Assembly (NCBI GenBank): GCA_023511535.1
Contig: JAIMBK010000010.1
Coordinates: forward strand, 633 to 64,632
Origin: Armatimonadota bacterium
GTDB lineage: Bacteria > Bacillota > Desulfotomaculia > Desulfotomaculales > Nap2-2B
DNA length: 64,000 bases
Reading direction: 5' to 3'
The translations under genes were made by a program, and so were the position numbers. The notes beneath the pieces were generated by a model that was given only the letters and a program-made list of their open reading frames with translations, made no database searches and had not been told where the DNA came from. Positions 1,098-25,995 of the stretch are shown here, piece by piece. The number at the start of each line of letters is the position of its first letter. The first letter of the stretch is position 1.

Positions 1098-3350
1098 TCA
1101 AAATGGTACTTCGTCATCAAAATCATCTTCTGAAACAACTTCTGTTTCTTCAAGCAATGTATCTTTTGATCCATCCTCCGGCTCGCCATCACTTTCATGT
1201 ATCCAGGTTTTTAGGAACTCCCCAATGTTGAACTGCTCTTTTCCCGGTTGCCATGCTTCCCACGGTCGAGGAGTATCACTCGTCGGAACGGGCTCCGGCT
1301 TTCGCACCTTCACTCTTGCTGCTACGTTAACAGCACTTCCCAAAAGAAGGCCTTCGCCGGGGGCTAAGATTGGTAATTGCTCGAGTAAATCACGTGAACC
1401 AATGGGTAGGATTTTCTTGAAATATTCTATATCCTCGGGATTTTGGATGCGATGCACCAGGAAATTTGCACACTGGGACAGCACCGTAGCACTGACATCC
1501 GACGGACGCTGACTCGCAATGATAAGAGAAAGCCCAAACTTTCGGCCTTCTTTGGCAATTCTCTCAAAGGTTTCCCGCGCTAATGTAAGACCGGGAGCTT
1601 CATCTTGGTTCCGTGGCTTAAGGTAGTTGTGAGCCTCTTCAAGTACGAGTACGTATGGTTGAACAGTTCTTTTAGCAGGCTCTGCCTGGGTCCTAACTTC
1701 CAGCAAAATCCGCCCAAAAACAGCGCAAAAGAAAGGAAGTACGTCGTGGGCAAGCATCGAGCAGTCCACTACGATAACTTGGTCATCATCCTGACCAGTC
1801 ATTGCCCATAGGATATCTTCTAACGAACCTCCGCCTTGTGTAAATACCGACCACCGCTTGTCCGCCAGTTGTCGATGGATACGCAATCTCAAAGTGGAAA
1901 TAAACTCCTGAATACGTGACTCTGCTCCGTGACGCGAAGCAGCGATATGAAAGTGAGCATCCCGTTCAAGTTCACGGGGATTAAATTGGATCGGGCTATC
2001 CGCAATAATCTGCTTGAGCCCACCTTTTGTAACTATATCCAAACGGAACTGCTGAAAAACAGGTTCTAATTTAGCAACAAATTGCACTACCTCCTCAGCC
2101 ACACCAGGGGGTAACCTCTGAAATTCGGCCCAGTTCTTTTCTTTACGAAGACTCTCATATTCTTCCTTGCTTCTAAGACCTCGTTCTCTAATCTTCTCAA
2201 TATCTTTTTCTATTCCATTAAACTGTGAGGGTAACCCAACTTTGTATTTCGCCAGTTCTCTCGCCAGTTCTCTTATTATATAAATGGTTTCTTGTAAGTG
2301 TGATATCAATTCGGCCGTATTATCTGATACTGCTGTACCGTCTGCCTCTGCTGCATATACAGAAAGGCTACCTAAGTAATTAAGGCATTTATCCACGATT
2401 CGGACAAGCCTTCTAAACGGCTTGACCGCATCCGGGTCTACCGAATCCTCACGAATCATTGTTATAACTCTCTCCAGGACAGGAACTTGACTAGCCTGTG
2501 AGGCTTCGAAAAAACTAATCAATTCAGTCAGGTTAAATATCCACAGGGGGAGTTCAAAAGGTTTTCCGTTAATGTACGACTTATTCAATTCTCGATCCGA
2601 TATCATTTCACTCTCCGTATTTTTTAAAGGAAAAGCACTTCCGTACTCGCCGTTGATGTCAAGAATAATAAACTTTGGTAATGGTTTAAATTCCCGGTTC
2701 TGCTGCTCAACAGCCGGTTGCTCCTGCTTATTCAGTAACGCTAGAGCCGATTGAATAATTGAAGCAACACTCCATGACTTCCCGGAACCGGTATTACCGA
2801 TAACACCAAAAGGCCGGGCCAATAGATCGTTAAAGGAAACGGTTACATCCTGTCTGTATATGGGCGATGGACCTACAACCAGGGCAATATCCCTATTATC
2901 CCGTGGCTGGTATTCCAAAATGGTTTTTAATTCTTCTTCCGTAGGTAAAAGTGCGGGCGTTTCGAGAACAGGGTATATAGACACTCCTGGCTCGAAAGGC
3001 ATGCTCTCTCTGAGTTGACCAAGAAGATTAATGGTTAAAATCCGCCGCGAACGGGCAAGTTGTAAGGCCATATCCCTTTCTGTATCTGCCTCTATGGTTT
3101 CATTTTCTGAAGCCCCTATCACAATACCGACCGCCGACTCACCCGGAGCAACGGGAAACAAAAGATATCCGCCTATTTGGGTGACAACTGATATACGATG
3201 GGGATACGACCGAATTTGGCTTCTGACATCAGGATCGAGTAACACTTTTACCCGATAGTTGAACACAGAAATTACTCGCCCAACCTCTCGTACATTTTTC
3301 ACCCCAAGATCAGGCACCATTCCCACCCCCTTATTGTAGCTTAGCTTCAA
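1098..3350 (-). CDS. herA: HerA-family (FtsK/HerA clade, DUF87-like) ATPase, partner of the upstream SIR2 protein
   Basis: Walker A FGVIGNTGSGKSWSV, Walker B YVLVLEEAHNYL and RKFGLSLIIASQRPSDV are typical of HerA ATPases. There is an N-terminal barrel-like GRVISVFNYRVKVLL. The ORF opens at TTG 3350, but the SD-supported ATG (GGGGG N5 ATG) is at 3320. The C-terminal tail is acidic. Confidence 0.85.
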   Translation of the reverse strand: MKLSYNKGVGMVPDLGVKNVREVGRVISVFNYRVKVLLDPDVRSQIRSYPHRISVVTQIGGYLLFPVAPGESAVGIVIGASENETIEADTERDMALQLARSRRILTINLLGQLRESMPFEPGVSIYPVLETPALLPTEEELKTILEYQPRDNRDIALVVGPSPIYRQDVTVSFNDLLARPFGVIGNTGSGKSWSVASIIQSALALLNKQEQPAVEQQNREFKPLPKFIILDINGEYGSAFPLKNTESEMISDRELNKSYINGKPFELPLWIFNLTELISFFEASQASQVPVLERVITMIREDSVDPDAVKPFRRLVRIVDKCLNYLGSLSVYAAEADGTAVSDNTAELISHLQETIYIIRELARELAKYKVGLPSQFNGIEKDIEKIRERGLRSKEEYESLRKEKNWAEFQRLPPGVAEEVVQFVAKLEPVFQQFRLDIVTKGGLKQIIADSPIQFNPRELERDAHFHIAASRHGAESRIQEFISTLRLRIHRQLADKRWSVFTQGGGSLEDILWAMTGQDDDQVIVVDCSMLAHDVLPFFCAVFGRILLEVRTQAEPAKRTVQPYVLVLEEAHNYLKPRNQDEAPGLTLARETFERIAKEGRKFGLSLIIASQRPSDVSATVLSQCANFLVHRIQNPEDIEYFKKILPIGSRDLLEQLPILAPGEGLLLGSAVNVAARVKVRKPEPVPTSDTPRPWEAWQPGKEQFNIGEFLKTWIHESDGEPEDGSKDTLLEETEVVSEDDFDDEVPF

Positions 3351-4906
3351 CCAATCTTATTATTTTGAGATTTCTGCAGGTCTCGAAGTGTTTGCGCTAT
3401 TGCTAATTCAGTTCTTAAAACTTCCAGATCAGGTAAGACATGCAAAGCAAAAAACTCAAATGTTCCCCAATGACCGCCCAGGCAATAAATCCGGCCGCAA
3501 GCATCAGCACGACAAAGTCTCCTGGCCCAAGAAGAGGGGTTTGGATCTATGATGACACACGTGAAGCTGGGATTTGTGAGGGCATCTTCGATTAACTGAT
3601 TTATATGATCATCCCATCCGCTGTACCCAATAATCATTAAAACCGTTTGGGGTTCTCTCAAAGCTTGCGAAAATGCCCGAAACATGTGCGAGAATGGCAT
3701 TGCAAGGGTTTCTCCATATTTGCCGGACGTGGGAAGGATAGCAAGTCCTTCACCTTTATCAAGAACCCTTTCCAGGTCAGGACTGTCTGAACTCTTACTC
3801 TCGCTAAGAAGGTCAGCTTCTCGAGGTAGAGGCCTATTGTCAAACACAATTCCATAGGGATTCCCTGCCGAGCCAAATTTGCTGCGCCGCCAGTTAATGC
3901 TTCCATGTAACTTATAAAGGTGCAGAACTTTATCGTAGCGGCGAACCCTTCCCTCGGTAACCTCTCCTGGATAATAAAGATCCAAATCATATGCAGCAGG
4001 ATTGAAACGCCTTGCAACAGTGCCTGTGAAGCCATCGCAATACATGACTCCCAGCCTATCCATTGCTTGTTCGATAAGCGTATCGTAATTTGTTGTAAAT
4101 ATTTTTGTTCTGCCCTGTTGGGGATCGCGCGCACTGAGCTTGGCAATTAAAGCTTCGTGAGGAGTGATATCCCATTCATGATCGCGAGCGTCGGGTGCGG
4201 AAAATCGGCTTGAAGGAAGATCTACGTTACAAACAACAGTGATTGCCCGCTCCAGATCAAGCAGTAACTCACTTAACCTAGTAATTCTAAGCTGGCGCCC
4301 CCGAATTCCCTTGAGAGGTATATCCAAGATCATCTGATCTATCGGCCACTGGCTTGCCTCTGATAAAGATCGCCAGGCCGTTAACTGGGAAAGAAATTTT
4401 TCAAAATGCCATCCAACTTTATCGGGAGCGCTCGCATGTGCAAGTATCGCTTTCAGTGTCAACTCTGAACTTCGCCCTTCGAGCAACTTATTTATCCGGC
4501 CAAAGAGTCCGGAACCGACAAACCCGGTCACATAAAAAGAAGCTCCTGCTCCGATCAAGATGCGGACATTCTGCATTTTTAACCATCGAGCAAAAAGTGC
4601 TAGCACTTCCTGGCGGATATTACTTTTTCGTTCATCTTCATTATCTTTTGCAAATCTTGACAGCCAATTTTCAGACCCCCGATAGAGAATGTTTGGGCTC
4701 CAAATACCTGGCGATATCTGTGTTATATCAGGCATTTCTGAAGATTGGAGATCAAACTGCAAGTTAAACCAGGGGTCATGACTTTTTCCTTCCAATTGCG
4801 GAAAAGGATCCTCTGGCGTTGCCTCTATTATTTTATCGTCCTTTTCAGCGTTCATTTGTCCTTCCTCGCTCTCTTGAGTAGCTCTTAACCCATCTTCAAT
4901 TCCCAA
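3347..4906 (-). CDS. SIR2-family protein (predicted NAD+-consuming effector of a SIR2-HerA system)
   Basis: Rossmann start RILIGAGASF, catalytic-type IFTTNYDTLIEQ (Asn) and LYKLHGSINW (His) are characteristic of the prokaryotic SIR2_2 family. It lies immediately upstream of herA. The ORF opens at TTG 4906. The better SD (GAGGAAGGA) precedes ATG 4855. Confidence 0.85.
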   Translation of the reverse strand: MGIEDGLRATQESEEGQMNAEKDDKIIEATPEDPFPQLEGKSHDPWFNLQFDLQSSEMPDITQISPGIWSPNILYRGSENWLSRFAKDNEDERKSNIRQEVLALFARWLKMQNVRILIGAGASFYVTGFVGSGLFGRINKLLEGRSSELTLKAILAHASAPDKVGWHFEKFLSQLTAWRSLSEASQWPIDQMILDIPLKGIRGRQLRITRLSELLLDLERAITVVCNVDLPSSRFSAPDARDHEWDITPHEALIAKLSARDPQQGRTKIFTTNYDTLIEQAMDRLGVMYCDGFTGTVARRFNPAAYDLDLYYPGEVTEGRVRRYDKVLHLYKLHGSINWRRSKFGSAGNPYGIVFDNRPLPREADLLSESKSSDSPDLERVLDKGEGLAILPTSGKYGETLAMPFSHMFRAFSQALREPQTVLMIIGYSGWDDHINQLIEDALTNPSFTCVIIDPNPSSWARRLCRADACGRIYCLGGHWGTFEFFALHVLPDLEVLRTELAIAQTLRDLQKSQNNKIG

Positions 4907-4907
4907 A

Positions 4908-6212
4908 TTAAGCAGGTTTAACCCCGTTATACATCTCCCCGTAAAAAGTTCTAAATTCAGAGTAATTAATTGGCCGGTAATGAGCCAGTTCGTTACGTAT
5001 TTTTCTACCCGTTGTAACCAATGATAACCACCGGCGTTCAGGCTGCAAAGAATGGCAATACTTCAACAGGTATTCGAGGTGCCCCCATTGACAGGCCAGA
5101 GGATTATCCCTCACGGCCTGTTTTTCCTCTTCGGAGAGCGGTGGGAACCAGCGGATCGGCCAGTTATGTCCATAACGACGGGTAAGCAAATTGCATATCG
5201 TTAATCGTACATCGTCTAAAACAGGTAACAGTAGAGCCGCTTGGCCACGCCAGATTCGATGCCATAATTCTTCTTTCTTCCCGAGAAAATTTAAGGCAGC
5301 TGAATGTAGCTCGATACCATATTCCGGGGTAGCCATCAATAAACCATGTGACCAAAGGCGAAATAATTTTAATGGTGGGGCAACTGATGGCGCACCTGGC
5401 AATCCAAATCGTACCCCCCTCTCATTTAAATTCTGAAATTCAAATCCCTGCCCGACCAGGTTTTCCCACGTCCATCCGCATTGATAACTATAAGCTTGTA
5501 GACTTTGAACAATTTTTTCCAGGTCGCCATCCACTTCATTCCATAGATAAGCCATACAGGCTATGTCGTTACCAACTAAAGCAGGTAAAAGGAATTCCCG
5601 CCAAAGAGAAGAAGCTCCCCACTTTTCCTGTTCAAGTTCATTATTTATCCGACATAAAAGTTGCATTTCGAGAGCGGTAGGAAATCCCCACCACCAGCGC
5701 ACAGAGAGGTATAGGCTACTTGTTGGAACCTCACAGGGTAACATATTAGCCGGTATTACCAGGCAGATGGCAGGCGCCATTACTCCATAATCTGCTGTAT
5801 TTTGGCTATGCCAAGACCATTGCACAAGAAATTCAAGCCAAATTTTACGTTTAATCTCTGGCAAAATACAATAACCATCAAGCCAGATTAAGTCCGGCAG
5901 GCTGCTGCTGGCTACAATTAGGTTAGCTACTGTACGTGATATGTTGCCTTCTCCCCAATCAACCCCTAACGCCTCACCTAATGCAGCCGGCGGCGGACGA
6001 TCAGGAAAAAATTCGGGGAGCGGAAGTGTTACGGAACTAATGTCCCGCCGCCATAACTCTTCACGAAGAACCGTCATAACTTGGGCAGGTTCAATATTCA
6101 GCGGCAAAAGAAGTAATACACTTCGCCTATTGGCGAGATCATCAACAATACTGGCAAGAAAACGCCGGACGCTGGGTAACTGAAAAAAGCCGGAGTAGAG
6201 AAAAGAGCTCAT
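4908..6212 (-). CDS. Hypothetical 434-aa protein with a C-terminal HEPN-like domain (RNxxxH motif)
   Basis: The ATG overlaps the stop of the giant upstream gene (ATGA, 6209-6212). The C-terminal TGRKIRNELAHYRP (nt 4980-4997 encode RNELAH) fits the HEPN Rx4-6H signature with a polar residue after R. The N-terminal ~200 aa has strand/helix patterns (SVLLLLPLN, DLIWLDG, AICLVIPA) like a P-loop fold lacking Walker A. That last point is inference. Confidence 0.6.
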   Translation of the reverse strand: MSSFLYSGFFQLPSVRRFLASIVDDLANRRSVLLLLPLNIEPAQVMTVLREELWRRDISSVTLPLPEFFPDRPPPAALGEALGVDWGEGNISRTVANLIVASSSLPDLIWLDGYCILPEIKRKIWLEFLVQWSWHSQNTADYGVMAPAICLVIPANMLPCEVPTSSLYLSVRWWWGFPTALEMQLLCRINNELEQEKWGASSLWREFLLPALVGNDIACMAYLWNEVDGDLEKIVQSLQAYSYQCGWTWENLVGQGFEFQNLNERGVRFGLPGAPSVAPPLKLFRLWSHGLLMATPEYGIELHSAALNFLGKKEELWHRIWRGQAALLLPVLDDVRLTICNLLTRRYGHNWPIRWFPPLSEEEKQAVRDNPLACQWGHLEYLLKYCHSLQPERRWLSLVTTGRKIRNELAHYRPINYSEFRTFYGEMYNGVKPA

Positions 6213-9200
6213 ACTTTGAGCAACCTTTCTACTATTGGTTCTAAGATCAAGCCTTCTTCAGGATGGATTTCCGTCAGCCCCATCATTTGCAAATATTCCA
6301 AAACAGCAGCCCAAACTTTTTCCGAGGCAGGTTGTCCAGATGATAACAATTCGCATATATGCTCCGGGGTAGCTAATTCCAAAGGTATTGACTTTTCCTG
6401 GATAATAAATCTTGCCAACTTTTCAATGTGTTCATTTATCTCTAAACCTAATTGCGACCAAAAGTTTTGTCTAAGCGGGGAACCCATTTCTTTCAGTTCG
6501 TTATCAATTTGGCAACAAAATGGACGGGGATCATCGGCCTCTCCACACCGGATAAATAACTCGTCCAACAGGTATGGCCAACCGCCCGTTGTCTGGAAGA
6601 CTTGCTCACATACATCTTTTGAGTCCATTTTGTTGCGTTGAACAATCCTTTGTTTAATGGCGGCCAGATTCCATCGCCGCGGCCAAAGCACTACGTCAAC
6701 CTGATTCTCCAGCTCCTTCCGATCAGTTGCGGGTAAAGTAAGCCATTCCCATGTTGCTTTCGGCGGAAAGACAAACAGAACCCTTAACCACTGTCCTTTT
6801 TTCTTGCCTTTATATTTCTGGCATATCCTTACAGCGCTGTTTATTAATGGCTCTATCTCCTTCGCGCTGCCTTTCATTTCTCGGTAAACAACCAGACGCC
6901 CATACCCGCTGTGCATTTTCAAATAATCTTCCAGCCAGATTCTCATTTTTCCAGCATCGTTAACCTCCGGAGGAATGCTGGCTAAATCTCCCCAAACACC
7001 GGCGGTTACTTCCGTTGGCTCGCCAGTCACTAAAGACCTGAAAGCTTCAACAAAACGGTTTAACCCCAAAGCTCCCGAAGCAAATAGCAACCCCACGCCA
7101 AACTGCCGCGTGTTCAGGCTTCGTTCCTGCCCAAACGAAAGGGGATTGTAGTACCGGCCGTTGCAATCAAGAGGAGCATGATAGTTATTGGGATCATCGT
7201 TCTGATCATCCGGCGAAGCATAGGAAAGCTCCAGCAGACGTTCCTCAATGTGGTCTTTTGTTCCGATTATCCGAACGAGATTCGGACTCCGCAAGTGATA
7301 GTAACCTTCGTTGCTACGCCATAACACTCCCAAACCGCACATTTCGTCCAATAGACCGCGAAACTCGTCGGAGCGGATCTGGCCAAATCCCTGTTCCCAC
7401 CACTCACTGGCCATGCGCAGTATATCCGTTGCTCGATAAGACTGAGCGAACACATCCCGCTTATCCAAATGGTCATAAATTATTGTCCAGGCAATAGCCT
7501 GATAACGTTTATCGAGGGCCAGCGTCCAATCGAAACGCTCTTTAAATTGTTCCCGGATTTCCTGCATGCGATAAACGGCTTCAATATCACTTCGATCGAT
7601 TACGTAAGGATACTGCGGCTTTTCTCTCCTGGCTTTATTGTGAAGTCGTATCAGGAGTTTCTGACAAAAAAGCTGGATTAGACCAGGGTGGTAGTTGGTG
7701 TAAGACAAAATACGAAGAATAAGCGCATCATCCTTAAAACGGTAACCAAGCGACGATAATGGCTTACGAATCAGTTCTTGGGCTGCACCTGGCTCCAGCG
7801 GTCCAACCCGCATCGGAGCGCCAAACTGGGCCAGGGGCTGATTTGCCAAACCCTGAAAACGTTGTACATTGTGAAGACCTGCAAAAACTACTTTGAACCT
7901 GCGCTGTGTATTTTGCATTAAAATCCGCAACTGGTCGACGATACAGAAATTATCCCTGGCATCCGCATCCAGAAAGTTATCCGCTTCATCAAACAGCACC
8001 AGGACACGATAACGGGGGTTCTTTTCAAGGACATTACGCAAATGAGTTATAATTTCATCCGGTAAATCGGTATTTATTTTTGGCGGAAGCAGCCCGAGCA
8101 TCTTGAAAACGTCCCGGAGTTTTTTCCAAATTACACTGGTGGGCTGGCCAGTTTTTGGGTCGCCTACAATCTTAATGTCTTCTACATAGGCATACTGATC
8201 ATTCTGCGGTTGGTGGAACTCTCGCTGTACATAGCGCAAAAGAGCAGACTTGCCTAATTGACGACCGCCGTATACCACACAACTCTCCTCCGGGCGCTGT
8301 AACTTACGGACCATATCTTCCCGGCCAAAAAACATCTCCTGGGGTACGTCGCCGGCCTGGAAAGGTGTATAAGGATTTACAGCAGTGAAAGGAAGGGAAC
8401 ATTTAAAGAAAGACGAGAGACGCGCCGTGCGCTCGGCAGCTAGAAAAACCAGCAATATCTCATCTAAAACCGCCATGGTTAAGCCCCGTTCGATTGATAA
8501 TTGCTTCATGACATGACGACGTTCCAGACTCATCCGTCCCAGGTAAAAAACCAACACATTGCGGTTATCCAGTTTCAAATCGCGTAACCAAGCGCTCATT
8601 GTATCCACGCTGGGTCGTTCCCACAGACAAATCACATCATATACTCCCTGCTGTTGAGAACCAAATTGCGGTACTGGCGCAAGCCCGCCTGCTGACATAG
8701 GAACACGAGACATATAAAAATAGTAATCGCTCGCATATAAATTATTAGCCGGTACTTTTAATCCAGGTTCTATGTTAAAACCTAGATAATGTAATATATA
8801 CGTAATTAAAGTAACTTTTTCCTTATTAGTCATTCTTCCTTGTTTTAACCTGCGCCATGCCTCAATGGCAGACAGCGCCTCGTCACGCCGCGGGCGCGGC
8901 AATTTGCCAAAGTTTAAACCGGCCCAACGCCGTTCATTGCGGATTGCATCACCAACAGCGACAACACCGTGATCCCGCCCCAGTTCTTCTTCGATTCTTT
9001 TCAAGGACTCTTTAAATTCATGAAAGACATCCCGTTCATCAACGCGGGGAACAAACCAGTTATCCTCAATTTCCTCTCCAGTGTCTAAGGCCCTCGCCAG
9101 GCGGGACAGAATTTCCTCTACTACACGCGTATCCCCCTGATCTAAAGCATTTTGAACGAAACTTTGCACCTGTGCTTTGCGGTTTTGATCAATTTTCGCT

Positions 9201-12169
9201 TCGTTCAAGCGTTCCTGTATACTTTGCCATTGGTTAGTTAACAAGATCAAACGCTCGCTCCGCGCTGTATCTAGCCTGGTCAGAATTTGGTCTAAAACAG
9301 CATAACAAGGTGTGAAATTTTGGACAGCCTTAACATCTATTGCCTGAATCTGGGCACTATATTCTGCCCGTTCTTCACCAATGATTCCATCAACTACCGC
9401 CTGCTCAATTGCTTCTTCTGTATGTCGGATTTTATCCTCGAGGGCAGCCCTGGAACCTTCGAGTTCTTCCTGATATTTTTTGCACAAACCGTTATATTCT
9501 TGCTCTGTACCCAATGCTCGCGCCAACTGGTCCGCAAACCGAAAATCCTTTTTCTCCAACCAACCCATAAAGGCTTCCTGCCAGGAGGGATTTTGTGCAT
9601 AGGCATCACGCAAGACCGTAGCAATAGGTGCCAACGCTAAAGGTTCTCCGTTATCGTTCAGAGTAAGTTCCGAAAAAAGGAATAACCTTCGCCGGAAAGC
9701 CTTCATTAAAGTATCCTCTTCGCTGATAAGCCAGTCCCAACGGTTCTCCGGCAAAGAAGATTTCAGGTACTCCGCCGGTAATTGTAAAATCCGGCATAAC
9801 TGCCCGGCGGCCCGAAGGAGGCAATACCCACCAGCCAGCAGGGAAATAGGGGCAGGTTTGCTGGTTAGGTTACGCCAGCTTTCCTCTTCTTCGGCAAGAG
9901 CTTTTTGAACACCTTGCCGCAATTCGGTAATGCGTTCCGCCAGCCAGTTTCTGCCCAGCCGTTCAATATCCTTCTCTTGCTCAACTAGTTCACACCAGCG
10001 GATGGCAAGAAAACATCCATCGCGGACATAACGAATAATCTGTTCCCGAGGATCACCTGTAATCAAATTATACTTTTTCCCCATTAGTTTGCGGTCAACG
10101 GCATTGATTTGGTCGGTGACAAAATCTCTCTGAAACCAATTATCAATTTCTTGCCGCACCAGTTGTACCCGATCACGACGGTCTTCCGCGACCAGCAATA
10201 AAATTGCTCCTAATTGACCTTTACTATCAATCAAATCCTGCCATACAGCGGTGGCCCGGTTCAATTTTGTTCTCCGCCCGCGCGCACCCTCCAACCAATC
10301 CTTAACCTTCAGGGATGCCTCTCGAATGGTCTGTTCACGCAGTTCAATACCGGAAACACTTAAGAGATCGGTTCTTTGAATCGGCACCCCAAGTTGCGCA
10401 AAAGTTTTTATTGTTTCAATTAAGCTATGCAAAAAAGGATGATTCCCCGGTACTTTTAGCCAACCCATTAATCCGCTTTTTGGCGCAATCAGAGTTGGGC
10501 ATAACGCTGCCGCCAAACCCAACAATTCCTGTACCTCGTCGTTTTCAGGCTGATGGTTGCGAGCAATTTCAAGCAGATCCTGAACAAAAAGATCGGAGTC
10601 CAGGTTTAACCATCTTGCCCCCTGGAGCGCCTGCAGGAGCCAATATTGTAATGGCGAAGAAGCGTACTTTTCCTCTAATGACCTTGCCAACCAGTAGGCG
10701 CCGGCGAGATCGTCTTCGATGATCAAAGACCAGAAAAAGTCATTCCAATTATCCAGGCCATCATGGGAAAATAAAGTGACCGCAATATCGTGGGCCGATG
10801 CCCGTTTTTCCTTTACCAATCTTAATGAAATTTTTTCGGGAGGCTGGGACTCAGGAACGACTGCAGTACGTTGATTTTCCGGTTGAGCCACTGCAACTTC
10901 CAGAGAAGCAAAAGGCGATTGATTAGTTCCGTTTTTCTCTGTAGAAGGTGAAATTAAGGAAATTTCCTCATGCTCCAAAAGGGAAAAAGGTGGTGGTGAA
11001 GAATCTAGCTTTGGCAACTGCTGTTCCAAATTGTTCCCCTTTTCAACGTGATCATCTTCTTCTGCTTTTCCTTTTTCCTGACATTGTTGTTCACCTTTCT
11101 CTTCCCGATCGGCTTTCCCAGGTATGCAGCTGGCAGGCAAAAATACTTCCGTCAATTCCTGATAGATCTGCTGGATTTTTTCTTCCAGTTCCTCCTGCTT
11201 TTTGCGGCGTTCGCGCTCTTCATGAATTGTAGCACCAGTTTGACGAAGTTCCTGGTAGAAACCAAAAAGTTCAAACAACCTTTCAATGCGGTCACAAGCT
11301 TCGGTTGCCTGTTGATATGAACAATTACGTACATCCCACTGGTCCGTATTTGTTATGCCAAAAAAGATTAATTCTTTTGCCCATTCCTTTTGCAATTTAC
11401 GCAAATCATGCTGTAAAAGCTCCAGGACAGAATCCTTTTCCCGGCTTTTGCTCTCCGCCAGTTCTTTTAACTGGTTAATAAAATCATTAACAGACTCCCA
11501 TTCGGGCGCTTCCGCCGGCAAAGCTTTTAGTTCTTCCAACCATTTGTGCCATAGTAGACCGACACCCAAACCTTTTTCCTCTTTCTCCTCAACGGATCCC
11601 TCTTCCTTTACCTCATCTCCTTCTTCTGTTATTTCATCTCCTTCTTCCATGGCCGATAAAATTGCTTCCTCAATTAAAGAAGCGATGAGAAGACGAACAT
11701 CGTTTTGGCAGTAACCCCGTTCAGCAACTAAAAAGGCAACCGCATCTTCAACCTGTTGTAATAGATATCCGCAATTCCCTGGATCTTCAAGTGAGTTTGC
11801 CAAACACTCAACTATCTTTTTTGGTCCTATGCACTGCTGGTTAAGATACTCCAGAATTTCGACCTTCAGTTCGCCCTTTGTTTCTTCCCATACTTTAAGG
11901 ATTGCTTTGAGCAATTGATCAGAATAATATGTAACAGCTTTTATTTCCTGGCCTAAAAGACGTACAGGCGCCTTTAATGGGTTTCGAAACCCGTTGATCT
12001 GGATATGGCCCCTAATGGTTTGCTCCAGTTGTCGGCGTGCCGGGAAGGATGCTTCCTTCCAGTGGCCAAGGGCCTGCCTGATGATTTCTTCCCGGTAACT
12101 TTCATCTTTTTTCACAATGGTTAGAATGTTATCTAAAAATGACGCTAAATCTTTTATTTGTTCTGACAC
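6209..12169 (-). CDS. Giant (1986 aa) P-loop NTPase, AAA+/STAND-like (Arch_ATPase-like core), with long uncharacterised N- and C-terminal regions
   Basis: Uninterrupted 5.96-kb ORF. GTG start sits 9 nt after AAAGGAGGG. FFGREDMVRKL...VVYGGRQLGKSALLRYV is Walker A (nt 8246-8269, aa ~1301). RVLVLFDEADNFL is Walker B and KVVFAGLHNVQRF is sensor-1-like. No other motif is recognisable by eye in ~1290 aa upstream or ~600 aa downstream of the core. Confidence 0.8.
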   Translation of the reverse strand: MSEQIKDLASFLDNILTIVKKDESYREEIIRQALGHWKEASFPARRQLEQTIRGHIQINGFRNPLKAPVRLLGQEIKAVTYYSDQLLKAILKVWEETKGELKVEILEYLNQQCIGPKKIVECLANSLEDPGNCGYLLQQVEDAVAFLVAERGYCQNDVRLLIASLIEEAILSAMEEGDEITEEGDEVKEEGSVEEKEEKGLGVGLLWHKWLEELKALPAEAPEWESVNDFINQLKELAESKSREKDSVLELLQHDLRKLQKEWAKELIFFGITNTDQWDVRNCSYQQATEACDRIERLFELFGFYQELRQTGATIHEERERRKKQEELEEKIQQIYQELTEVFLPASCIPGKADREEKGEQQCQEKGKAEEDDHVEKGNNLEQQLPKLDSSPPPFSLLEHEEISLISPSTEKNGTNQSPFASLEVAVAQPENQRTAVVPESQPPEKISLRLVKEKRASAHDIAVTLFSHDGLDNWNDFFWSLIIEDDLAGAYWLARSLEEKYASSPLQYWLLQALQGARWLNLDSDLFVQDLLEIARNHQPENDEVQELLGLAAALCPTLIAPKSGLMGWLKVPGNHPFLHSLIETIKTFAQLGVPIQRTDLLSVSGIELREQTIREASLKVKDWLEGARGRRTKLNRATAVWQDLIDSKGQLGAILLLVAEDRRDRVQLVRQEIDNWFQRDFVTDQINAVDRKLMGKKYNLITGDPREQIIRYVRDGCFLAIRWCELVEQEKDIERLGRNWLAERITELRQGVQKALAEEEESWRNLTSKPAPISLLAGGYCLLRAAGQLCRILQLPAEYLKSSLPENRWDWLISEEDTLMKAFRRRLFLFSELTLNDNGEPLALAPIATVLRDAYAQNPSWQEAFMGWLEKKDFRFADQLARALGTEQEYNGLCKKYQEELEGSRAALEDKIRHTEEAIEQAVVDGIIGEERAEYSAQIQAIDVKAVQNFTPCYAVLDQILTRLDTARSERLILLTNQWQSIQERLNEAKIDQNRKAQVQSFVQNALDQGDTRVVEEILSRLARALDTGEEIEDNWFVPRVDERDVFHEFKESLKRIEEELGRDHGVVAVGDAIRNERRWAGLNFGKLPRPRRDEALSAIEAWRRLKQGRMTNKEKVTLITYILHYLGFNIEPGLKVPANNLYASDYYFYMSRVPMSAGGLAPVPQFGSQQQGVYDVICLWERPSVDTMSAWLRDLKLDNRNVLVFYLGRMSLERRHVMKQLSIERGLTMAVLDEILLVFLAAERTARLSSFFKCSLPFTAVNPYTPFQAGDVPQEMFFGREDMVRKLQRPEESCVVYGGRQLGKSALLRYVQREFHQPQNDQYAYVEDIKIVGDPKTGQPTSVIWKKLRDVFKMLGLLPPKINTDLPDEIITHLRNVLEKNPRYRVLVLFDEADNFLDADARDNFCIVDQLRILMQNTQRRFKVVFAGLHNVQRFQGLANQPLAQFGAPMRVGPLEPGAAQELIRKPLSSLGYRFKDDALILRILSYTNYHPGLIQLFCQKLLIRLHNKARREKPQYPYVIDRSDIEAVYRMQEIREQFKERFDWTLALDKRYQAIAWTIIYDHLDKRDVFAQSYRATDILRMASEWWEQGFGQIRSDEFRGLLDEMCGLGVLWRSNEGYYHLRSPNLVRIIGTKDHIEERLLELSYASPDDQNDDPNNYHAPLDCNGRYYNPLSFGQERSLNTRQFGVGLLFASGALGLNRFVEAFRSLVTGEPTEVTAGVWGDLASIPPEVNDAGKMRIWLEDYLKMHSGYGRLVVYREMKGSAKEIEPLINSAVRICQKYKGKKKGQWLRVLFVFPPKATWEWLTLPATDRKELENQVDVVLWPRRWNLAAIKQRIVQRNKMDSKDVCEQVFQTTGGWPYLLDELFIRCGEADDPRPFCCQIDNELKEMGSPLRQNFWSQLGLEINEHIEKLARFIIQEKSIPLELATPEHICELLSSGQPASEKVWAAVLEYLQMMGLTEIHPEEGLILEPIVERLLKV

Positions 12170-12700
12170 CTTTCCTTACCCTCCTTTAAATATAAACCGG
12201 TAATAAATAACTGATTATAAGGTATATAACCGACTTCAATTTGTCACGGTTTAAAATTTTTTTAACGATGTTTCTCCTGGTCGATTTGTCACTGGACTTA
12301 TTTCAATTTGTTAGGCAAACTCTTTAACAGCAAAAATCGTCTTAAGCAATCTACCGCCGAGGTGACCTATACCATGCCCGCTCTTAAACCTGATTTCGAT
12401 GTAATGCTACAATTTTCCTGCAATGAAATATTATTTTTTTCTATACTTCCAAAAATATTTGGTCTTCAGGCGAGACGTAAAAAAGGTTTCAGTAATCGGA
12501 AAGACCGGGCATTTGGTCAATTGCATCGTGGCGATCCGGTGGTCCTTAAATGATAGTGGACGACTTTTTGCTGAAATCTAATTTAAATGCACAAGCCCCT
12601 TAATGCATTGGCTACCTTTTCTAAAAAAATGATTAGTGATAGAGCAACCAAATTGCAAGTATGAGTAAATATTTCTACAAAGATTTTACAATAAAATCTT

Positions 12701-14749
12701 CTAAACAATAATCGCCTTAACAAAAGCGTCCGTTGCATCAGCGTAGAATTCGATATTGATCTTCGTAGCCATTTCATCAGGAAGGTCAAATAGTTGCCTT
12801 CGCGAAGATATAGGCATTAAAAGCGTCGTTGCTCCTTTCTCGAGGGCCAGCTCGGCCACGGCAACCGGGTTAGGGATCATCTCGATTGAACCGCCAAGGT
12901 TAAGGGCACCAACAATGATTAATCCACCTTTGACGCTGCGCTCGATTAAAGCGCCGCAAAGGGCGATGAGAACCGGCAAACCGAGTCCCCGACCGGAACG
13001 ATCGACGTCCATCGCGCGTAATTGAATGGAAAACTCGTGTCCACGGGGATCGCGGTCCCCAACCAGCTCTTTGGCCCTTACGTAAAGATTCTGTTCTCCG
13101 TAACGGACGCTCTCCCGAAAAGCCGGCGGAACGGGTGAGTTAAGAATCTTCACCCCACTCCCGGGACCAACCGTGGCCTCTATACGATATAGAGCCGGGG
13201 AAGCGTCCTGCCCGCCGGGGCTGATCGCCCATACCTGCCCCGGAGGCAAGGGATCACTGTCAATGGTTTCGTCGCTGTGGAGTTCCGGAGTGGAAACAAA
13301 CTGTTCCACCCCATCTACGCCCATGGAGAAGCTGAAATGAGTATTGCGAAATTCCGTTTTCAGGCAGCGCTTCTGCTGCTCTTTCACCCGGCGGCGCGCT
13401 TCCAGAGCGATCCGGACGATCTTCTCCAGCTCTTCATCTGGAATGGGCATCTCCGGATCAGGAAAAATCAGCTTGACCAGGCCGCTCACGATTTTATTTA
13501 CCGCTTCAATATCCCGTCCGCTGAGCGCTCCTCCCCAGTTCACCCGGCCCTGCAGAACCGATATCCGACTGCCGTCCCGCAGCTTATGCCAGCACTCAGA
13601 GAGGAAATCGCTAACTAATCCAAAATGGTTCGTAAAGTGAATATTTGGATTAAGTTTCGGAAATTCCCACCCGGGAACGTAGGCATGAATCCGGTCCATA
13701 AAGGCCGTATCGTCGCGCATCTCAGGAGGAAGCGGGCTCAGCAAATGGCCGATGCGTTGCTGCTGCTGAACATCGACGTCAAAATTTCCCAGCATGACAA
13801 TGCCGCCGAAGGCGCGAATGCTCTCCTTGCCCCGGGAAAATTCGCCCGCTGCCATGTAACCTTTCATGATGTTGACGCCGTCTTTCTGGTCGAAGGATAT
13901 GCCGGAGATTTCGTCGAAGCAGACCACGTCATAAAGACAGACAAGCCCCCGCTGCCCGGTGGCGTTATTTACAAACATCTTGGCCACCGTGGCCTTCCCG
14001 CCAGAAATCAGGTGTGAGTAGGGAGAGATTTGTTGAAACAAATGACTTTTCCCGGTTCCGCGGGGACCCAGTTCCACAAGATTACAGTTTTGCTCCACAA
14101 ACGGCACCATTCTTAACAAGGCCACAAGTTGCGCCCGTTCCGAAAGGGAGTCCGGTTCCAAACCTACGGAACGCAGCAGAAAGCGTTTCCATTCGTCCGT
14201 TGTGAACTGACTCCTTCCCCGCTGCAAAACTGTTAGAACGTCCACCCTGGAAAGTTGAATGGGTCTTAGGTTTTCGATTTTGAAAGGACGGCCATTTCTT
14301 TCCAGAGCGATCGCAGCGTCATAGCCCAGGGTTATTTCGGCATAAAATCCATCGGTCAGCATTCGCTCATTCTCATGAACCAGATTGTCATCAATGCGGA
14401 CATCTTTTAGCCCCAGGCTCGGCAACTCCGCAATAAAGCAGTCATTGCGAGCGTCCAGGCGGGCTTTGACAATGTCGATTATCTTTACCGACCCGCTATC
14501 TCTTGCGCGCGCTTTAAAGAGTTCTTCTTCGCCGGTCCGGACCGTACGGTCTTTCAACTGTCTTTCGACAATCCGCAGGCCCTCCTCAATCTCTACTTCG
14601 TCAACAGTTGCGCAATAGCGCCCGAGTAGAAACTCTACAACATATGTAGGCACTGGATACTGACGGCTGTATTTGCGCACCAGATCTTTGCGCACTATAT
14701 AGCCATCAAACGCGGAAGCTGCGATCCGGTCGAGAGAATCAAGCTCCAT
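12701..14749 (-). CDS. brxL: BREX system Lon protease-like protein BrxL
   Basis: N-terminus FDGYIVRKDLVRKYSRQYPVPTYVVEFLLGRYCA, P-loop ELGPRGTGKSHLFQQ and a C-terminal Lon-protease-like region. It is the last gene of the canonical type 1 BREX order. Confidence 0.9.
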   Translation of the reverse strand: MELDSLDRIAASAFDGYIVRKDLVRKYSRQYPVPTYVVEFLLGRYCATVDEVEIEEGLRIVERQLKDRTVRTGEEELFKARARDSGSVKIIDIVKARLDARNDCFIAELPSLGLKDVRIDDNLVHENERMLTDGFYAEITLGYDAAIALERNGRPFKIENLRPIQLSRVDVLTVLQRGRSQFTTDEWKRFLLRSVGLEPDSLSERAQLVALLRMVPFVEQNCNLVELGPRGTGKSHLFQQISPYSHLISGGKATVAKMFVNNATGQRGLVCLYDVVCFDEISGISFDQKDGVNIMKGYMAAGEFSRGKESIRAFGGIVMLGNFDVDVQQQQRIGHLLSPLPPEMRDDTAFMDRIHAYVPGWEFPKLNPNIHFTNHFGLVSDFLSECWHKLRDGSRISVLQGRVNWGGALSGRDIEAVNKIVSGLVKLIFPDPEMPIPDEELEKIVRIALEARRRVKEQQKRCLKTEFRNTHFSFSMGVDGVEQFVSTPELHSDETIDSDPLPPGQVWAISPGGQDASPALYRIEATVGPGSGVKILNSPVPPAFRESVRYGEQNLYVRAKELVGDRDPRGHEFSIQLRAMDVDRSGRGLGLPVLIALCGALIERSVKGGLIIVGALNLGGSIEMIPNPVAVAELALEKGATTLLMPISSRRQLFDLPDEMATKINIEFYADATDAFVKAIIV

Positions 14750-14751
14750 GT

Positions 14752-17100: not shown

Positions 17101-17106
17101 ATCTAT

Positions 17107-20100: not shown

Positions 20101-20517
20101 CAGCATCTGCTGGGCAAAACGGCTGGCCAGGGTCCACAGGTCCGTGCCTTCTTCTTTGGCCAGTTCCTCACCTTCTTCCAGGCTGATGGCCACCCCCATC
20201 TCCGGCTCGATAAGGAGGTCATTTTCCGCCAGGAAACGGGCAAAGAGCATCCGGTGCCAGTGTTCGTAAGCGCACTCCTGGACCAAATGCGTAATTTCCA
20301 GTTTTCCGCTTTTGTCCTGCCTGTCCCCCAGTTGCCGCGCCCGGGCGCGAAGATGGTTGCGCAGCCGGCGCTGTTCCGGCGTCAGATGGCTGTACGGCTC
20401 ATGATGATGCACAGCCAGGGCCTCCAGGGCAGCCCTGGCCCCGGCTTCCGCAACATCCCGGGCCTCGCCAACTGTACGTTCAAGTTTACTGCGAAGTTCT
20501 CCTGATAGTACCGGCAT
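17107..20517 (-). CDS. pglX: BREX-1 N6-adenine DNA methyltransferase PglX
   Basis: SAM-binding motif I ILDPCCGSGHFLV and catalytic motif IV LIITNVPYL (NPPY variant). 1136 aa, in the brxC-pglX-pglZ context. Confidence 0.9.
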   Translation of the reverse strand: MPVLSGELRSKLERTVGEARDVAEAGARAALEALAVHHHEPYSHLTPEQRRLRNHLRARARQLGDRQDKSGKLEITHLVQECAYEHWHRMLFARFLAENDLLIEPEMGVAISLEEGEELAKEEGTDLWTLASRFAQQMLPQIFRPDDPVLQVTFAREYQLKLEQLLAGLEPDIFKASDALGWVYQFWQSKRKKQVNESGNKIGADELPAVTQLFTEPYMVNFLIHNTIGAWHAGKVLAENPQLAEQAESEEELRRAVALPGVSWDYLRFIRSDDGKGPWRPAAGTFEGWPKRAAGLKILDPCCGSGHFLVAALYHLVPIRMTEEGLTAREACDAILSENLHGLEIDERCTQIAAFALALAAWTYPGAGGHRILPELRIACSGIAPNTKKKDWIDLAGEDERLRNGMARLYDLFRDAPVLGSLIDPGSALENNLLEAGFDELRPLLEKAMSAEKDDYEQRELGVAACGIADAVKILGGRYHLIITNVPYLARGKQIDPLKEFCAQYYGEARNDIATVFLDRLLRLNSPAGITALVLPQNWLFLTSYRKFRTRLLKTRRWEILAQLGEGGFENSQAAGAFTVLLIISASIPPEGHAFVGIDAIAPRTAQEKARFLYIGELRTMVQSDQFKNPEARVTITEIPLVNETLGQYCSILQGSSTGDEPRFIRLFWEFNSFNGRWKLLLSAPDEGLYSGRNHVWDWPNDNCELAKSDSARIQGLDAIGKQGFFVSGSRRITASIYDGEFYSKVLATIIPFDSLNKLAIWAFLESEAFEREVRKLDQKILVTPGVFANVPFDLEYWQKVAAEKYPRGLPEPYSDDPTQWIFHGHPAVSIEPLQVAVARLLGYRWPAELDDSMRLSAEARELVQRCRELKDYADSDGIVCVPAVRGEEPAAERLRALLIAAYGDDWSPTKEQELIAATGAEAKDLDEWLRNDFFEQHCRLFHHRPFIWYIWDGRRRDGFHALVNYHKLAEGNGKGRQVLESLTYSYLGEWITRQKDGVKRGEGGAEDRLAAALELQKRLIAILAGEPPFDIFVRWKPIEKQPIGWEPDINDGVRINIRPFMASDIPGGRKGAGVLRWKPNINWNKDRGKEPVRPQKQFPWFWKGGNFVGDRVNEVHLNNEEKRQARLEAAEKFKE

Positions 20518-20528
20518 CCATTTCCCCC

Positions 20529-25394: not shown

Positions 25395-25418
25395 AAGATA
25401 TCTTACCTGATCATGGTA

Positions 25419-25427
25419 ATTATAGCA
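25419..25427 (-). promoter_or_regulatory. Candidate extended -10 promoter (TGcTATAAT) of the BREX operon
   Basis: The minus strand reads ...ttgcatttatctcTTGcTATAATtacc..., 25-65 nt upstream of the candidate brxA starts and just downstream of a terminator hairpin. Confidence 0.35.
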
Positions 25428-25463
25428 AGAGATAAATGCAAAAAATTTTATTTATCGATAAAA

Positions 25464-25493
25464 ATACCCCGCACGAAATTTCACGCGGGGTAT
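25464..25493 (-). terminator. Rho-independent terminator downstream of the DUF488 genes
   Basis: 9-bp stem ATACCCCGC / GCGGGGTAT with a 12-nt loop, followed on the minus strand by TTTTTATCG. It insulates the DUF488 genes from the BREX promoter. Confidence 0.6.
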
Positions 25494-25539
25494 CTTTTAC
25501 TCATGCAACTTTTTCTTCCCGTTTAAATAACAAAAAAAT

Positions 25540-25978: not shown

Positions 25979-25995
25979 TTTACTTTCCTCCAGTT

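What the first reader, a model, noticed from the sequence alone, without database searches (positions are those of the whole stretch)
4908..6212. 434-aa protein ends in a canonical HEPN RNxxxH motif and may be a second, RNA-targeting effector
The last ~120 aa contain ...LLPVLDDVRLTICNLL...WGHLEYLLKY...TGRKIRNELAHYRPINYSEF. RNELAH (nt 4980-4997) fits the Rx4-6H HEPN signature with Asn after Arg, as defined in the Anantharaman et al. 2013 HEPN survey. The motif sits in the last helix, as in Swt1-like HEPN domains that are often linked to large NTPases. The N-half resembles an inactivated P-loop fold with no GKS/T. The gene is translationally coupled (ATGA) to the giant NTPase.
Basis: partly seen in the sequence, partly recalled or inferred. 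Interest (0 to 1): 0.65.

Follow-up and report, generated by a model that had tools for sequence, protein, structure and literature searches.

The report
Likely HEPN RNase partner of giant ATPase
A 434-residue protein of unknown family, always encoded right behind a ~2,000-residue ATPase, combines a dead ATPase-like module with a small helical domain that carries an absolutely conserved RNase-type (HEPN) motif. It is most likely the RNA-cutting arm of an undescribed two-gene bacterial immune cassette.

Summary
ORF 4908-6212(-) encodes 434 aa, RNELAH lies at nt 4980-4997, and its ATG overlaps the stop of the 1,986-aa ATPase gene (ATGA, 6209-6212).

R406 and H411 are invariant in 116/116 and 110/110 homologues; N407 occurs in 110/116. 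It is the only Rx4-6H in the protein. In a confident AlphaFold model the motif closes the penultimate helix and opens the loop to the last helix, which is the published HEPN position.

The N-half is an AAA+ fold with no Walker A in any member. The gene sits directly behind the giant ATPase gene in 42/46 loci, with a 4-nt overlap in 31/42. SIR2, HerA and BrxL appear in none of these loci. The protein is thus the sole recognisable effector of its own two-gene cassette, not a second effector of SIR2-HerA.

The family has no Pfam, NCBIfam or PADLOC model. I class it as a new variant of a known kind.

The parts
4908..6212 (-). Gene for the 434-aa partner protein (pseudo-AAA+ module plus HEPN-like domain)
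   Evidence: ORF and translation. More than 158 homologues of 420-445 aa, all unnamed. AlphaFold2 model with pLDDT 93.3 and pTM 0.89.
5688..6212 (-). Residues 1-175: alpha/beta core with an AAA+ type fold and five strands. The Walker A position reads P-x-G-[VI]-[DE]-P, with no GK[ST].
   Evidence: Foldseek/PDB top hits are ORC3, RuvB, Cdc6, RFC, Hda and Avs4 (prob 0.97-1.0, E 6e-4 to 5e-2). Column counts at residues 37-44 show no K[ST] in any of 116 members.
5451..5675 (-). Residues 180-254: helical lid-like subdomain following the AAA+ core
   Evidence: DSSP of the model shows helices 180-193, 200-213, 217-223, 231-244 and 249-254.
5277..5450 (-). Residues 255-312: lower-confidence linker (pLDDT 64-73), then a short helix, two beta-hairpin strands and a helix
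   Evidence: pLDDT blocks and DSSP.
4923..5276 (-). Residues 313-430: all-helical HEPN-like domain of about 118 aa. It is the most conserved part of the protein.
   Evidence: DSSP helices 313-347, 361-369, 376-385, 387-410 and 417-430. Mean top-residue frequency is 0.60 against 0.48 for the N-part. Sub-threshold collinear hits to PF18731, e.g. residues 327-412 to profile positions 10-100 of 115.
4980..4997 (-). R406-N-E-L-A-H411: the Rx4H motif and predicted catalytic site
   Evidence: R and H are 116/116 and N is 110/116. Both are invariant in 110 diverse representatives. They align to the invariant R352..H357 of the sister family. R lies in the last turn of helix 387-410 and H411 is the first loop residue.
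5241..5261 (-). H318-R-I-W-R-G-Q324: second conserved motif on the first long helix of the C-domain
   Evidence: W321, R322 and Q324 are 116/116, R319 is 115/116 and H318 is 111/116. The motif is conserved as R-x-W-R in the sister family.
5205..5216 (-). D333-x-x-R336: conserved acidic/basic pair, a possible counterpart of the HEPN Ex3[KR] motif
   Evidence: D333 is 115/116 and R336 is 116/116. R336 is invariant in A4. The equivalence to Ex3[KR] is inference, and the spacing differs.
6209..6212 (-). ATGA start/stop overlap between the giant ATPase gene and the partner gene
   Evidence: Sequence. The same 4-nt overlap ([AGT]TGA) occurs in 31/42 homologous loci, and in 10 more a start codon lies close to the giant's stop (9 of them 0-5 nt downstream).
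6209..12169 (-). Gene for the 1,986-aa giant ATPase, the invariable upstream partner
   Evidence: A homologue lies immediately upstream on the same strand in 42/46 loci. Pfam AAA_22 scores above its cut-off, with weaker hits to AAA_16, ATPase_2 and nSTAND1.
7862..8320 (-). Residues ~1284-1436 of the giant: active ORC/Cdc6/STAND-like P-loop core. Walker A is GGRQLGKS (1301-1308, nt 8246-8269) and Walker B is DEAD (1394-1397, nt 7979-7990).
   Evidence: Pfam. At least 90% column conservation in 31 giants.

Best explanation
The 434-aa protein is the effector subunit of a self-contained two-gene cassette made of a giant ORC/Cdc6/STAND-like ATPase and this partner.

Its N-terminal two thirds are a catalytically dead AAA+ module (core plus lid). 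I infer that this module docks the protein onto the giant ATPase, or into its oligomer. Its C-terminal ~118 residues are a HEPN-superfamily domain, closest to the Swt1-like family, whose R406-N407...H411 site would cleave RNA without a metal.

Proposed sequence of events, all inferred:
1. The giant ATPase senses an invader through its poorly conserved, lineage-variable N-terminal ~950 residues.
2. It binds or hydrolyses ATP and changes its assembly state.
3. This brings two partner HEPN domains together into the composite active site that HEPN RNases need.
4. RNA cleavage arrests the cell or the phage.

Shown here: the gene pair and its tight coupling, the invariance and placement of the motif, the dead P-loop, and the active P-loop of the giant. 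Inferred: RNase activity, the complex between the two proteins, the trigger and the defence role.
For: - Motif: R406 and H411 are invariant in 116/116 and 110/110 homologues, and N407 is 110/116. The motif is retained in a sister family aligned at hhalign probability 99.1%, E 1.7e-18.
- Placement: the motif sits at the end of the penultimate helix and the start of the loop to the last helix, in a model with pLDDT 96-98 in that region. This matches the definition in PMC3710099. A polar N after R is also typical.
- Pfam: Swt1-like HEPN (PF18731) is the only family hit repeatedly, in 14/41 (best 2e-4), 37/110 (best 2e-5) and 3/34 of the sister family. Single hits go to other HEPN-named Pfam families, pEK499_p136 and RiboL-PSP, and to the PADLOC models Cas13a and CARF_HEPN.
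- Dead ATPase module: AAA+ fold by Foldseek with no Walker A in any member.
- Linkage: the giant gene is directly upstream in 42/46 loci from more than 8 phyla, with a 4-nt overlap in 31/42.
- Active giant: Walker A and Walker B are conserved in at least 90% of 31 giants.
- Context: in the window the pair lies between a type 1 BREX system and SIR2-HerA. Elsewhere it sits beside HigB/HTH, Uma2 or transposase remnants.
- Fusions: two independent in-frame fusions join the giant's N-terminus to the HEPN-like domain. This links the two proteins functionally.
Against: - No family member reaches Pfam's gathering score for PF18731 (27.5 bits), and the majority consensus of the domain does not hit it at all.
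- The weak hits are correlated among relatives and are partly driven by the motif region itself, e.g. residues 391-418 in P0005.
- Foldseek of the C-domain model against PDB and BFVD returned nothing significant and no HEPN entry in the top 50.
- I could not inspect the coordinates, so the four-helix bundle is not verified.
- Profile searches of PDB sequences found nothing.
- There is no sequence evidence that the pseudo-AAA+ module is related to the giant's ATPase, so co-assembly is a guess.
- In most other loci the neighbours are housekeeping genes. The defence role therefore rests mainly on this window and on analogy.
Confidence: 0.6

Rival explanations
1. The C-domain is a HEPN fold but is not an effector. 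It would bind RNA or a nucleotide as a sensor or regulator of the giant ATPase, and the toxic activity would lie elsewhere, for example in an unrecognised domain of the giant.
For: About 1,300 residues of the giant have no recognised domain. PMC3710099 describes non-catalytic HEPN domains that bind nucleic acids. The sister family adds a P-loop kinase (AAA_33) behind the domain, which could fit a signalling or repair role.
Against: Non-catalytic HEPN domains typically lose the Rx4-6H motif. Here R, N and H are essentially invariant, and the C-domain is the most conserved part of the protein.
Confidence: 0.15
2. The C-domain is not a HEPN domain. It would be a family-specific helical domain in which the conserved R, H, WRGQ and DxxR residues serve folding, contact with the giant ATPase or another chemistry, and the RNxxxH resemblance would be convergent.
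For: No Pfam hit is above threshold, the consensus does not hit PF18731, Foldseek found no HEPN match, and there is no PDB sequence match.
Against: There are 54 sub-threshold hits to one and the same HEPN family across two divergent families, several of them collinear over about 90 residues. The motif sits exactly at the published structural position. Foldseek is weak on small helical bundles (my own knowledge).
Confidence: 0.13
3. One reading: the four co-oriented genes (giant ATPase, 434-aa protein, SIR2, HerA) form one composite system, in which the HEPN protein is a second effector beside the SIR2 NADase.
For: The four genes are contiguous on one strand with gaps of 52 nt or less, and no terminator-like site lies between the 434-aa gene and SIR2.
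Against: None of the other 46 loci carries SIR2 or HerA within 10 kb. SIR2 and HerA match PADLOC and NCBIfam models of the stand-alone SIR2-HerA anti-phage pair.
Confidence: 0.04
4. The cassette is not immune at all. It would be a housekeeping or stress-response RNA-processing machine.
For: In several genomes the pair is flanked by metabolic genes.
Against: The distribution is patchy: 45 of 185,579 species genomes, spread over many phyla. Neighbours vary from locus to locus, and the pair is adjacent to BREX, SIR2-HerA, toxin-antitoxin genes and transposase remnants. Some loci are decayed or fused. All of this is typical of mobile defence or conflict genes.
Confidence: 0.08

Closest known systems
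Swt1-like / Abi2 group of HEPN domains (Pfam PF18731; Anantharaman et al. 2013, PMC3710099)
   Same: An all-helical domain of about 115 aa. An R-[polar]-x3-H motif at the end of the third core helix. Catalytically intact bacterial versions are linked to AAA+ ATPases. It is the only Pfam family hit repeatedly by this family.
   Different: No member reaches the Pfam cut-off. This family has its own extra invariant motifs (HRxWRGQ, DxxR, C340, W351). The domain follows a dead AAA+ module instead of preceding an active one.
HEPN-DUF499 ATPase of the Hma / type-1 BREX-related systems (Ava_2192 type; PMC3710099, PMC12839542)
   Same: A Swt1-family HEPN RNase is combined with an ORC/Cdc6/STAND-type AAA+ ATPase in defence loci, and has been proposed as a suicide or backup effector.
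   Different: There, HEPN is fused in cis to the N-terminus of the active ATPase, and the system needs a methyltransferase and a helicase-nuclease. Here, HEPN is on a separate polypeptide, the ATPase has about 2,000 aa, and no methylase or helicase is conserved.
Avs/AVAST and other STAND NTPase immune sensors (e.g. Avs4, PDB 8dgf)
   Same: A large P-loop sensor protein is expected to switch on a nuclease on activation. Avs4 is among the fold matches of the partner's N-domain.
   Different: In Avs proteins the effector is fused to the active NTPase (my own knowledge). Here the effector is on a second protein whose own NTPase module is dead. No PADLOC model matches either protein at E<=0.01.
iSTAND components of MoxR-vWA ternary conflict systems (Kaur et al. 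2020, PMC7159879)
   Same: A catalytically inactive STAND/AAA+ module is used as a scaffold fused to effector or signalling domains, working with a separate active AAA+ protein.
   Different: No MoxR or vWA genes are present. The effector is C-terminal rather than N-terminal. No sequence relationship was tested or shown.
Sister family found here: 545-565-aa 'AAA family ATPase / predicted kinase' proteins behind 2,400-aa giants, e.g. on Azospirillum plasmids (e.g. WP_111068372.1)
   Same: The same pseudo-AAA+ plus HEPN-like core (hhalign 99.1%, E 1.7e-18), an invariant R..AH motif, a homologous giant ATPase (BLASTP 1e-81) and a 4-nt gene overlap.
   Different: It carries an extra C-terminal AAA_33 P-loop kinase domain. 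The residue after the R is R, not N. The giant carries an RNaseH_pPIWI_RE-like segment and follows another pPIWI_RE-type gene.

Membership tests
HEPN superfamily (definition of Anantharaman et al. 2013) | Conserved Rx4-6H motif with a polar residue (N/D/H) right after R | tested here: met
   RNELAH at 406-411. R and H are 116/116 and 110/110, and N is 110/116. It is the only Rx4-6H in the protein.
HEPN superfamily (definition of Anantharaman et al. 2013) | Motif located at the end of core helix 3 and the start of the loop to helix 4 | tested here: met
   In the AlphaFold2 DSSP, helix 387-410 contains R406-A410, H411 is the first loop residue, and the final helix is 417-430. The definition was read. 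This is a predicted, not a solved, structure.
HEPN superfamily (definition of Anantharaman et al. 2013) | Four-helix up-and-down bundle of ~100-120 aa, structurally similar to solved HEPN domains | tested here: inconclusive
HEPN superfamily (definition of Anantharaman et al. 2013) | Second conserved acidic residue upstream, typically Ex3[KR] | tested here: inconclusive
   D333-x-x-R336 is conserved (115/116 and 116/116), but its spacing differs from Ex3[KR] and its proximity to the motif could not be checked.
HEPN superfamily (definition of Anantharaman et al. 2013) | Metal-independent endoRNase activity dependent on R and H; dimeric composite site | not testable with these tools
   Needs biochemistry.
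Pfam PF18731 HEPN_Swt1 | Score at or above the curated gathering cut-off (27.5 bits) | tested here: not met
   The window protein has no hit. 14/41, 37/110 and 3/34 relatives hit below the cut-off, with best E 2e-5. The consensus sequence has no hit. It is therefore the closest family, not a Pfam-defined member.
AAA+ ATPases (N-terminal module of the 434-aa protein) | AAA+ alpha/beta core followed by a helical lid | tested here: met
   Foldseek/PDB hits to ORC3, RuvB, Cdc6, RFC, Hda and Sir3 AAA+, with prob 0.97-1.0 and E 6e-4 to 5e-2.
AAA+ ATPases (N-terminal module of the 434-aa protein) | Walker A GxxxxGK[ST] after strand 1 | tested here: not met
   Residues 37-44 read P-x-G-[VI]-[DE]-P-x-x, and no member has GK[ST]. 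It is a pseudo-ATPase.
STAND / ORC-Cdc6-like AAA+ (giant 1,986-aa protein) | Intact Walker A and B; match to AAA_22/AAA_16/STAND models | tested here: met
   GGRQLGKS and DEAD are at least 90% conserved in 31 giants. AAA_22 scores 28.5-29.6 bits against a cut-off of 27. nSTAND1, AAA_16 and ATPase_2 score below their cut-offs.
SIR2-HerA anti-phage system (as an extra component) | Co-occurrence with SIR2 and HerA across homologues | tested here: not met
   tblastn of the window SIR2 and HerA found them in 0 of 46 loci.
BREX type 1 (as an accessory gene) | Co-occurrence with BREX genes across homologues | tested here: not met
   BrxL is absent from all other loci. Neighbours carry no BREX domains.
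Known or candidate defence systems in PADLOC-DB 2.0.0 | Match to a PADLOC protein model | tested here: not met
   The partner and the giant have no hit at E<=0.01. Among 110 relatives only single weak hits were seen.

The most novel reading that the evidence does not exclude
The pair defines a new class of two-component immune machine. In it, a pseudo-AAA+ subunit acts as an adaptor that plugs an RNase into the oligomer of a giant ATPase sensor. The sister lineage swaps in an Argonaute-like (pPIWI_RE) module and adds a polynucleotide-kinase-like domain. That would point to nucleic-acid-guided activation with coupled RNA cleavage and end-processing. The two natural fusions of the giant's N-terminus with the HEPN domain would then be minimal, self-sufficient versions of the system.
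Probability: 0.2. Interest if true: 0.75.

Novelty: new variant of a known kind. Interest (0 to 1): 0.5.

Why it matters
If the prediction holds, this is an uncatalogued, phylogenetically wide family. The C-domain profile finds about 250 clusters at 50% identity (E<=1e-30) in metagenomes, yet only 45 species genomes carry it.

It would be an RNA-targeting immune cassette in which the effector is delivered in trans by a dead ATPase module to a ~2,000-residue sensor ATPase. That adds a new architecture to the HEPN/STAND theme.

It would also supply a family model that annotation pipelines lack, since every member is currently 'hypothetical protein'. And it offers tractable homologues (Azospirillum, Pyxidicoccus, Kouleothrix) for testing how giant ATPases switch on nucleases.

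Tried and rejected
- **PDB sequence searches.** Profile and sequence searches with the whole family, the C-domain profile and the C-domain consensus found nothing. The giant's ATPase region also found nothing.
- **Consensus against Pfam.** Scanning a majority-consensus sequence, in the hope of a stronger HEPN_Swt1 score, gave no hit.
- **Stepping stone.** The divergent stand-alone relative in L045 returned only itself.
- **Library search of the C-domain.** It found 807 hits, but the 150 shown were all family members, so distant relatives stayed invisible.
- **Partner versus giant.** hhalign of the partner's N- or C-domain against the giant's ATPase region or the whole giant gave no relationship. 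The idea that the pseudo-AAA+ is a paralogue of the giant's ATPase is unsupported.
- **Four-gene system with SIR2-HerA or a BREX accessory.** Rejected on co-occurrence.
- **Literature.** Searches for this cassette found only general HEPN, STAND and BREX papers.
- **L043 fusion.** My first, by-eye claim that the L043 N-terminus resembles the window giant failed BLASTP. It was confirmed only against closer giants.
Full report
**1. The observation**

The minus-strand ORF 4908..6212 encodes a 434-aa protein that starts with ATG. R406-N-E-L-A-H411 is encoded at nt 4997-4980. The ATG at 6212-6210 overlaps the TGA at 6211-6209 of the upstream 1,986-aa ORF (6209..12169), giving ATGA.

The exact protein is on record as a hypothetical protein of an Armatimonadetes metagenome-assembled genome.

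**2. Is the motif more than chance?**

An Rx4-6H string is expected by chance about once in every two proteins of this size (my estimate), so the string alone means little. The evidence comes from conservation.

- The family has more than 158 members at 90% clustering. The C-domain profile finds about 250 clusters at 50% identity with E<=1e-30.
- In 116 aligned members (A2) only 11 columns are invariant, and R406 and H411 are two of them. N407 is 110/116, A410 114/116, Y412 112/116 and P414 105/116.
- In 110 more diverse representatives (A4, 28-43% identity) only five columns stay invariant: W321, R336, W351, R406 and H411.
- RNELAH is the only Rx4-6H in the protein.
- The C-terminal 159 residues are more conserved than the N-terminal 275 (0.60 against 0.48 mean top-residue frequency).

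**3. Structure**

AlphaFold2 with the 116-sequence alignment gave a confident model (pLDDT 93.3, pTM 0.89).

- Residues 1-175 form a five-stranded alpha/beta core, followed by a helical lid (180-254).
- A lower-confidence linker follows (about 255-280).
- Next comes a small helix and beta-hairpin element (281-309).
- The protein ends in an all-helical domain (313-430).

Foldseek of the whole model against PDB returned AAA+ proteins: ORC3, RuvB, Cdc6, RFC subunits, Hda, the Sir3 AAA+ domain and Avs4. Probabilities were 0.97-1.0 and E-values were modest, 6e-4 to 5e-2.

The loop where a Walker A should sit reads P-x-G-[VI]-[DE]-P in the family, and no member has GK[ST].

**4. Is the C-domain a HEPN domain?**

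Evidence for:

- Anantharaman et al. [quoted passage not shown] They add that the residue after R is usually N, D or H, and that the domain is 100-120 aa long (PMC3710099).
- In the model, helix 387-410 carries R406 to A410, H411 is the first loop residue, and the last helix is 417-430. That is the canonical position.
- Pfam finds nothing for the window protein itself. Among its relatives, however, Swt1-like HEPN (PF18731) is the only family hit repeatedly: 14 of 41 (best E 2e-4) and 37 of 110 (best 2e-5). The next family reaches only 5 of 110.
- Some alignments are collinear over the whole domain, for example residues 327-412 to profile positions 10-100 of 115.
- Single members also touch other HEPN-named models: pEK499_p136 and RiboL-PSP in Pfam, and Cas13a and CARF_HEPN in PADLOC.

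Evidence against:

- No hit reaches Pfam's 27.5-bit cut-off.
- The majority consensus does not hit PF18731.
- The weak hits are correlated among relatives and are partly driven by the motif region.
- A separate model of residues 276-434 (pLDDT 90.8) found nothing significant with Foldseek in PDB (best E 0.84) or BFVD.

I rate the HEPN assignment as likely (about 0.7) but unproven.

**5. Genomic linkage**

A scan of 185,579 species genomes found 45 loci. They come from Binatia, Latescibacterota, Chloroflexota, Acidobacteriota, Myxococcota, Desulfobacterota, Methylomirabilota, Entotheonella and one Methanospirillum bin.

- In 42 of 46 loci (with L001), a homologue of the giant ATPase lies directly upstream on the same strand.
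- In 31 of those 42 the start codon overlaps the giant's stop by 4 nt. In 10 more a start codon lies close to the stop, 0-5 nt downstream in nine of them.
- None of the loci contains SIR2, HerA or BrxL.
- Neighbours differ from locus to locus: glycine reductase and HigB/HTH, TamB and Uma2, transposase remnants, sugar metabolism.

The unit is therefore a mobile two-gene cassette.

In the window it is one of at least three systems in an island of about 25 kb:

| System | Coordinates |
|---|---|
| HerA | 1098-3350 |
| SIR2 | 3347-4906 |
| This cassette (partner plus giant) | 4908-12169 |
| Type 1 BREX (brxL to brxA) | 12701-25394 |
| DUF488-N3a gene | 25996-26469 |

Housekeeping genes start near 28.9 kb. 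The 'second effector' reading is not supported. SIR2-HerA is a neighbouring autonomous system, and the giant itself has no recognisable effector domain.

**6. The giant ATPase**

Its best-conserved part is residues ~1250-1700. Walker A (GGRQLGKS) and Walker B (DEAD) are conserved in at least 90% of 31 giants. It matches AAA_22 above the cut-off and nSTAND1, AAA_16 and ATPase_2 below their cut-offs. The first ~200 residues are poorly conserved. No sequence relationship between the giant and either half of the partner was detectable.

**7. A sister family**

A tblastn search of plasmids hit an Azospirillum gene annotated as 'AAA family ATPase'. That 557-aa protein overlaps by 4 nt the end of a 2,403-aa gene. 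The larger protein is homologous to the window giant over about 1,040 residues (BLASTP 1e-81).

The 557-aa family has about 40 clusters. It aligns with the 434-aa family over 371 columns at hhalign probability 99.1%, E 1.7e-18. It keeps an invariant R352-x4-H357 (RRxMAH) and R-x-W-R. It adds a C-terminal AAA_33 P-loop kinase domain. Three of its 34 members again touch PF18731.

Its giant carries an RNaseH_pPIWI_RE-like segment and follows another gene annotated as an RNaseH domain-containing protein, which I take to be pPIWI_RE-type. So the R..H site is conserved across two families that share only about 20% identity.

**8. Fusions and a stand-alone form**

Two independent in-frame fusions join the giant's N-terminus to the HEPN-like domain. 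In both, everything in between is deleted.

- A 616-aa ORF in a Roseiflexaceae genome (L032): residues 45-459 match window giant 26-444 (E 3e-20), and residues 457-612 match partner residues 270-424.
- A 254-aa ORF in a Spirochaetia genome (L043): residues 10-126 match giant residues 3-121 of L008 (E 1e-23), and residues 128-250 match its partner residues 298-420 at 71% identity.

All other short hits are contig-end fragments. These fusions may be decay products or minimal versions. Either way they tie the two proteins together.

A 168-aa stand-alone version of the domain lies next to a DNA methylase in L045.

**9. Mechanism (inferred)**

The giant ATPase is the sensor and switch. The partner's dead AAA+ module tethers it to the giant. 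Activation brings two HEPN domains together, and the R406/N407/H411 site cleaves RNA, which arrests the cell or the phage.

Shown here: the linkage, the coupling, the invariance and placement of the motif, and the dead and live P-loops. Not shown: the complex, the RNase activity, the trigger and protection against phage.

**10. Comparison and novelty**

The theme of a Swt1/Abi2-group HEPN with an ORC/Cdc6/STAND-type ATPase is known from the HEPN-DUF499 proteins of Hma / type-1 BREX-related systems (PMC3710099, PMC12839542). Inactive STAND scaffolds that carry effectors are known from iSTAND systems (PMC7159879).

This cassette differs in three ways. The HEPN domain is on a separate polypeptide behind a pseudo-AAA+ module. 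The ATPase has about 2,000 residues. No methylase, helicase, MoxR or vWA partner is conserved.

No Pfam, NCBIfam or PADLOC model matches the partner, and no PADLOC model matches the giant. I found no paper on the pair. I class it as a new variant of a known kind, of moderate interest.

Noticed in passing
L032 8630-10480 (+); L043 3826-4590 (+): Two independent in-frame fusions join the N-terminus of a giant-ATPase homologue directly to the HEPN-like domain. The ATPase core and the pseudo-AAA+ module are deleted. One is 616 aa in a Roseiflexaceae MAG and the other 254 aa in a Spirochaetia MAG. They could be decay products or minimal systems.
   Followed up: partly
L047 1028-9909 (+) = NZ_CP029830.1 556663-565544 (Azospirillum ramasamyi plasmid): A sister cassette. 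A 2,403-aa giant carries an RNaseH_pPIWI_RE-like segment and AAA_22. It overlaps by 4 nt a 557-aa partner built of a pseudo-AAA+ module, a HEPN-like domain (RRxMAH invariant) and an AAA_33 P-loop kinase. Upstream lies another RNaseH (pPIWI_RE)-type gene. Downstream lie Hjc/PD-(D/E)XK-like and DUF6035/CoiA-nuclease-like genes.
   Followed up: partly
L045 1443-1949 (+): A 168-aa stand-alone, divergent version of the C-domain (…VWRGQ…IRNSLAHYRP…) lies directly after an N6_N4 DNA methyltransferase gene (375-1325). Only one near-identical homologue was found.
   Followed up: partly
window 1098-4906 (-): A SIR2 (519-aa ORF; the likely true start is the ATG at 4855, behind a GAGGAAGGA Shine-Dalgarno-like site) and HerA (750 aa) pair matches the anti-phage SIR2-HerA models. 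It is contiguous with the cassette, with no terminator-like site between them. A promoter-like site lies at 5049-5021, inside the 434-aa gene.
   Followed up: partly
window 12701-26469 (-): A complete type 1 BREX operon (brxA 24522-25394, brxB, brxC, pglX, pglZ, brxL 12701-14749), with a DUF488-N3a gene at 25996-26469 just upstream. A gap of about 530 bp (12170-12700) separates brxL from the giant ATPase gene.
   Followed up: no
L005, L006, L011, L014, L025, L027, L037 (giant genes): In several genomes the giant ORF is split or shortened (e.g. 315, 903 or 1,142 aa pieces) while the partner gene is intact. I could not tell whether these are frameshift pseudogenes or assembly errors.
   Followed up: no
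L018 (CAYWHV010000255.1, 4,257-bp contig): One copy of the cassette is binned in an archaeal Methanospirillum MAG, while all other copies are bacterial. On such a short contig this may be a binning artefact rather than transfer to archaea.
   Followed up: no
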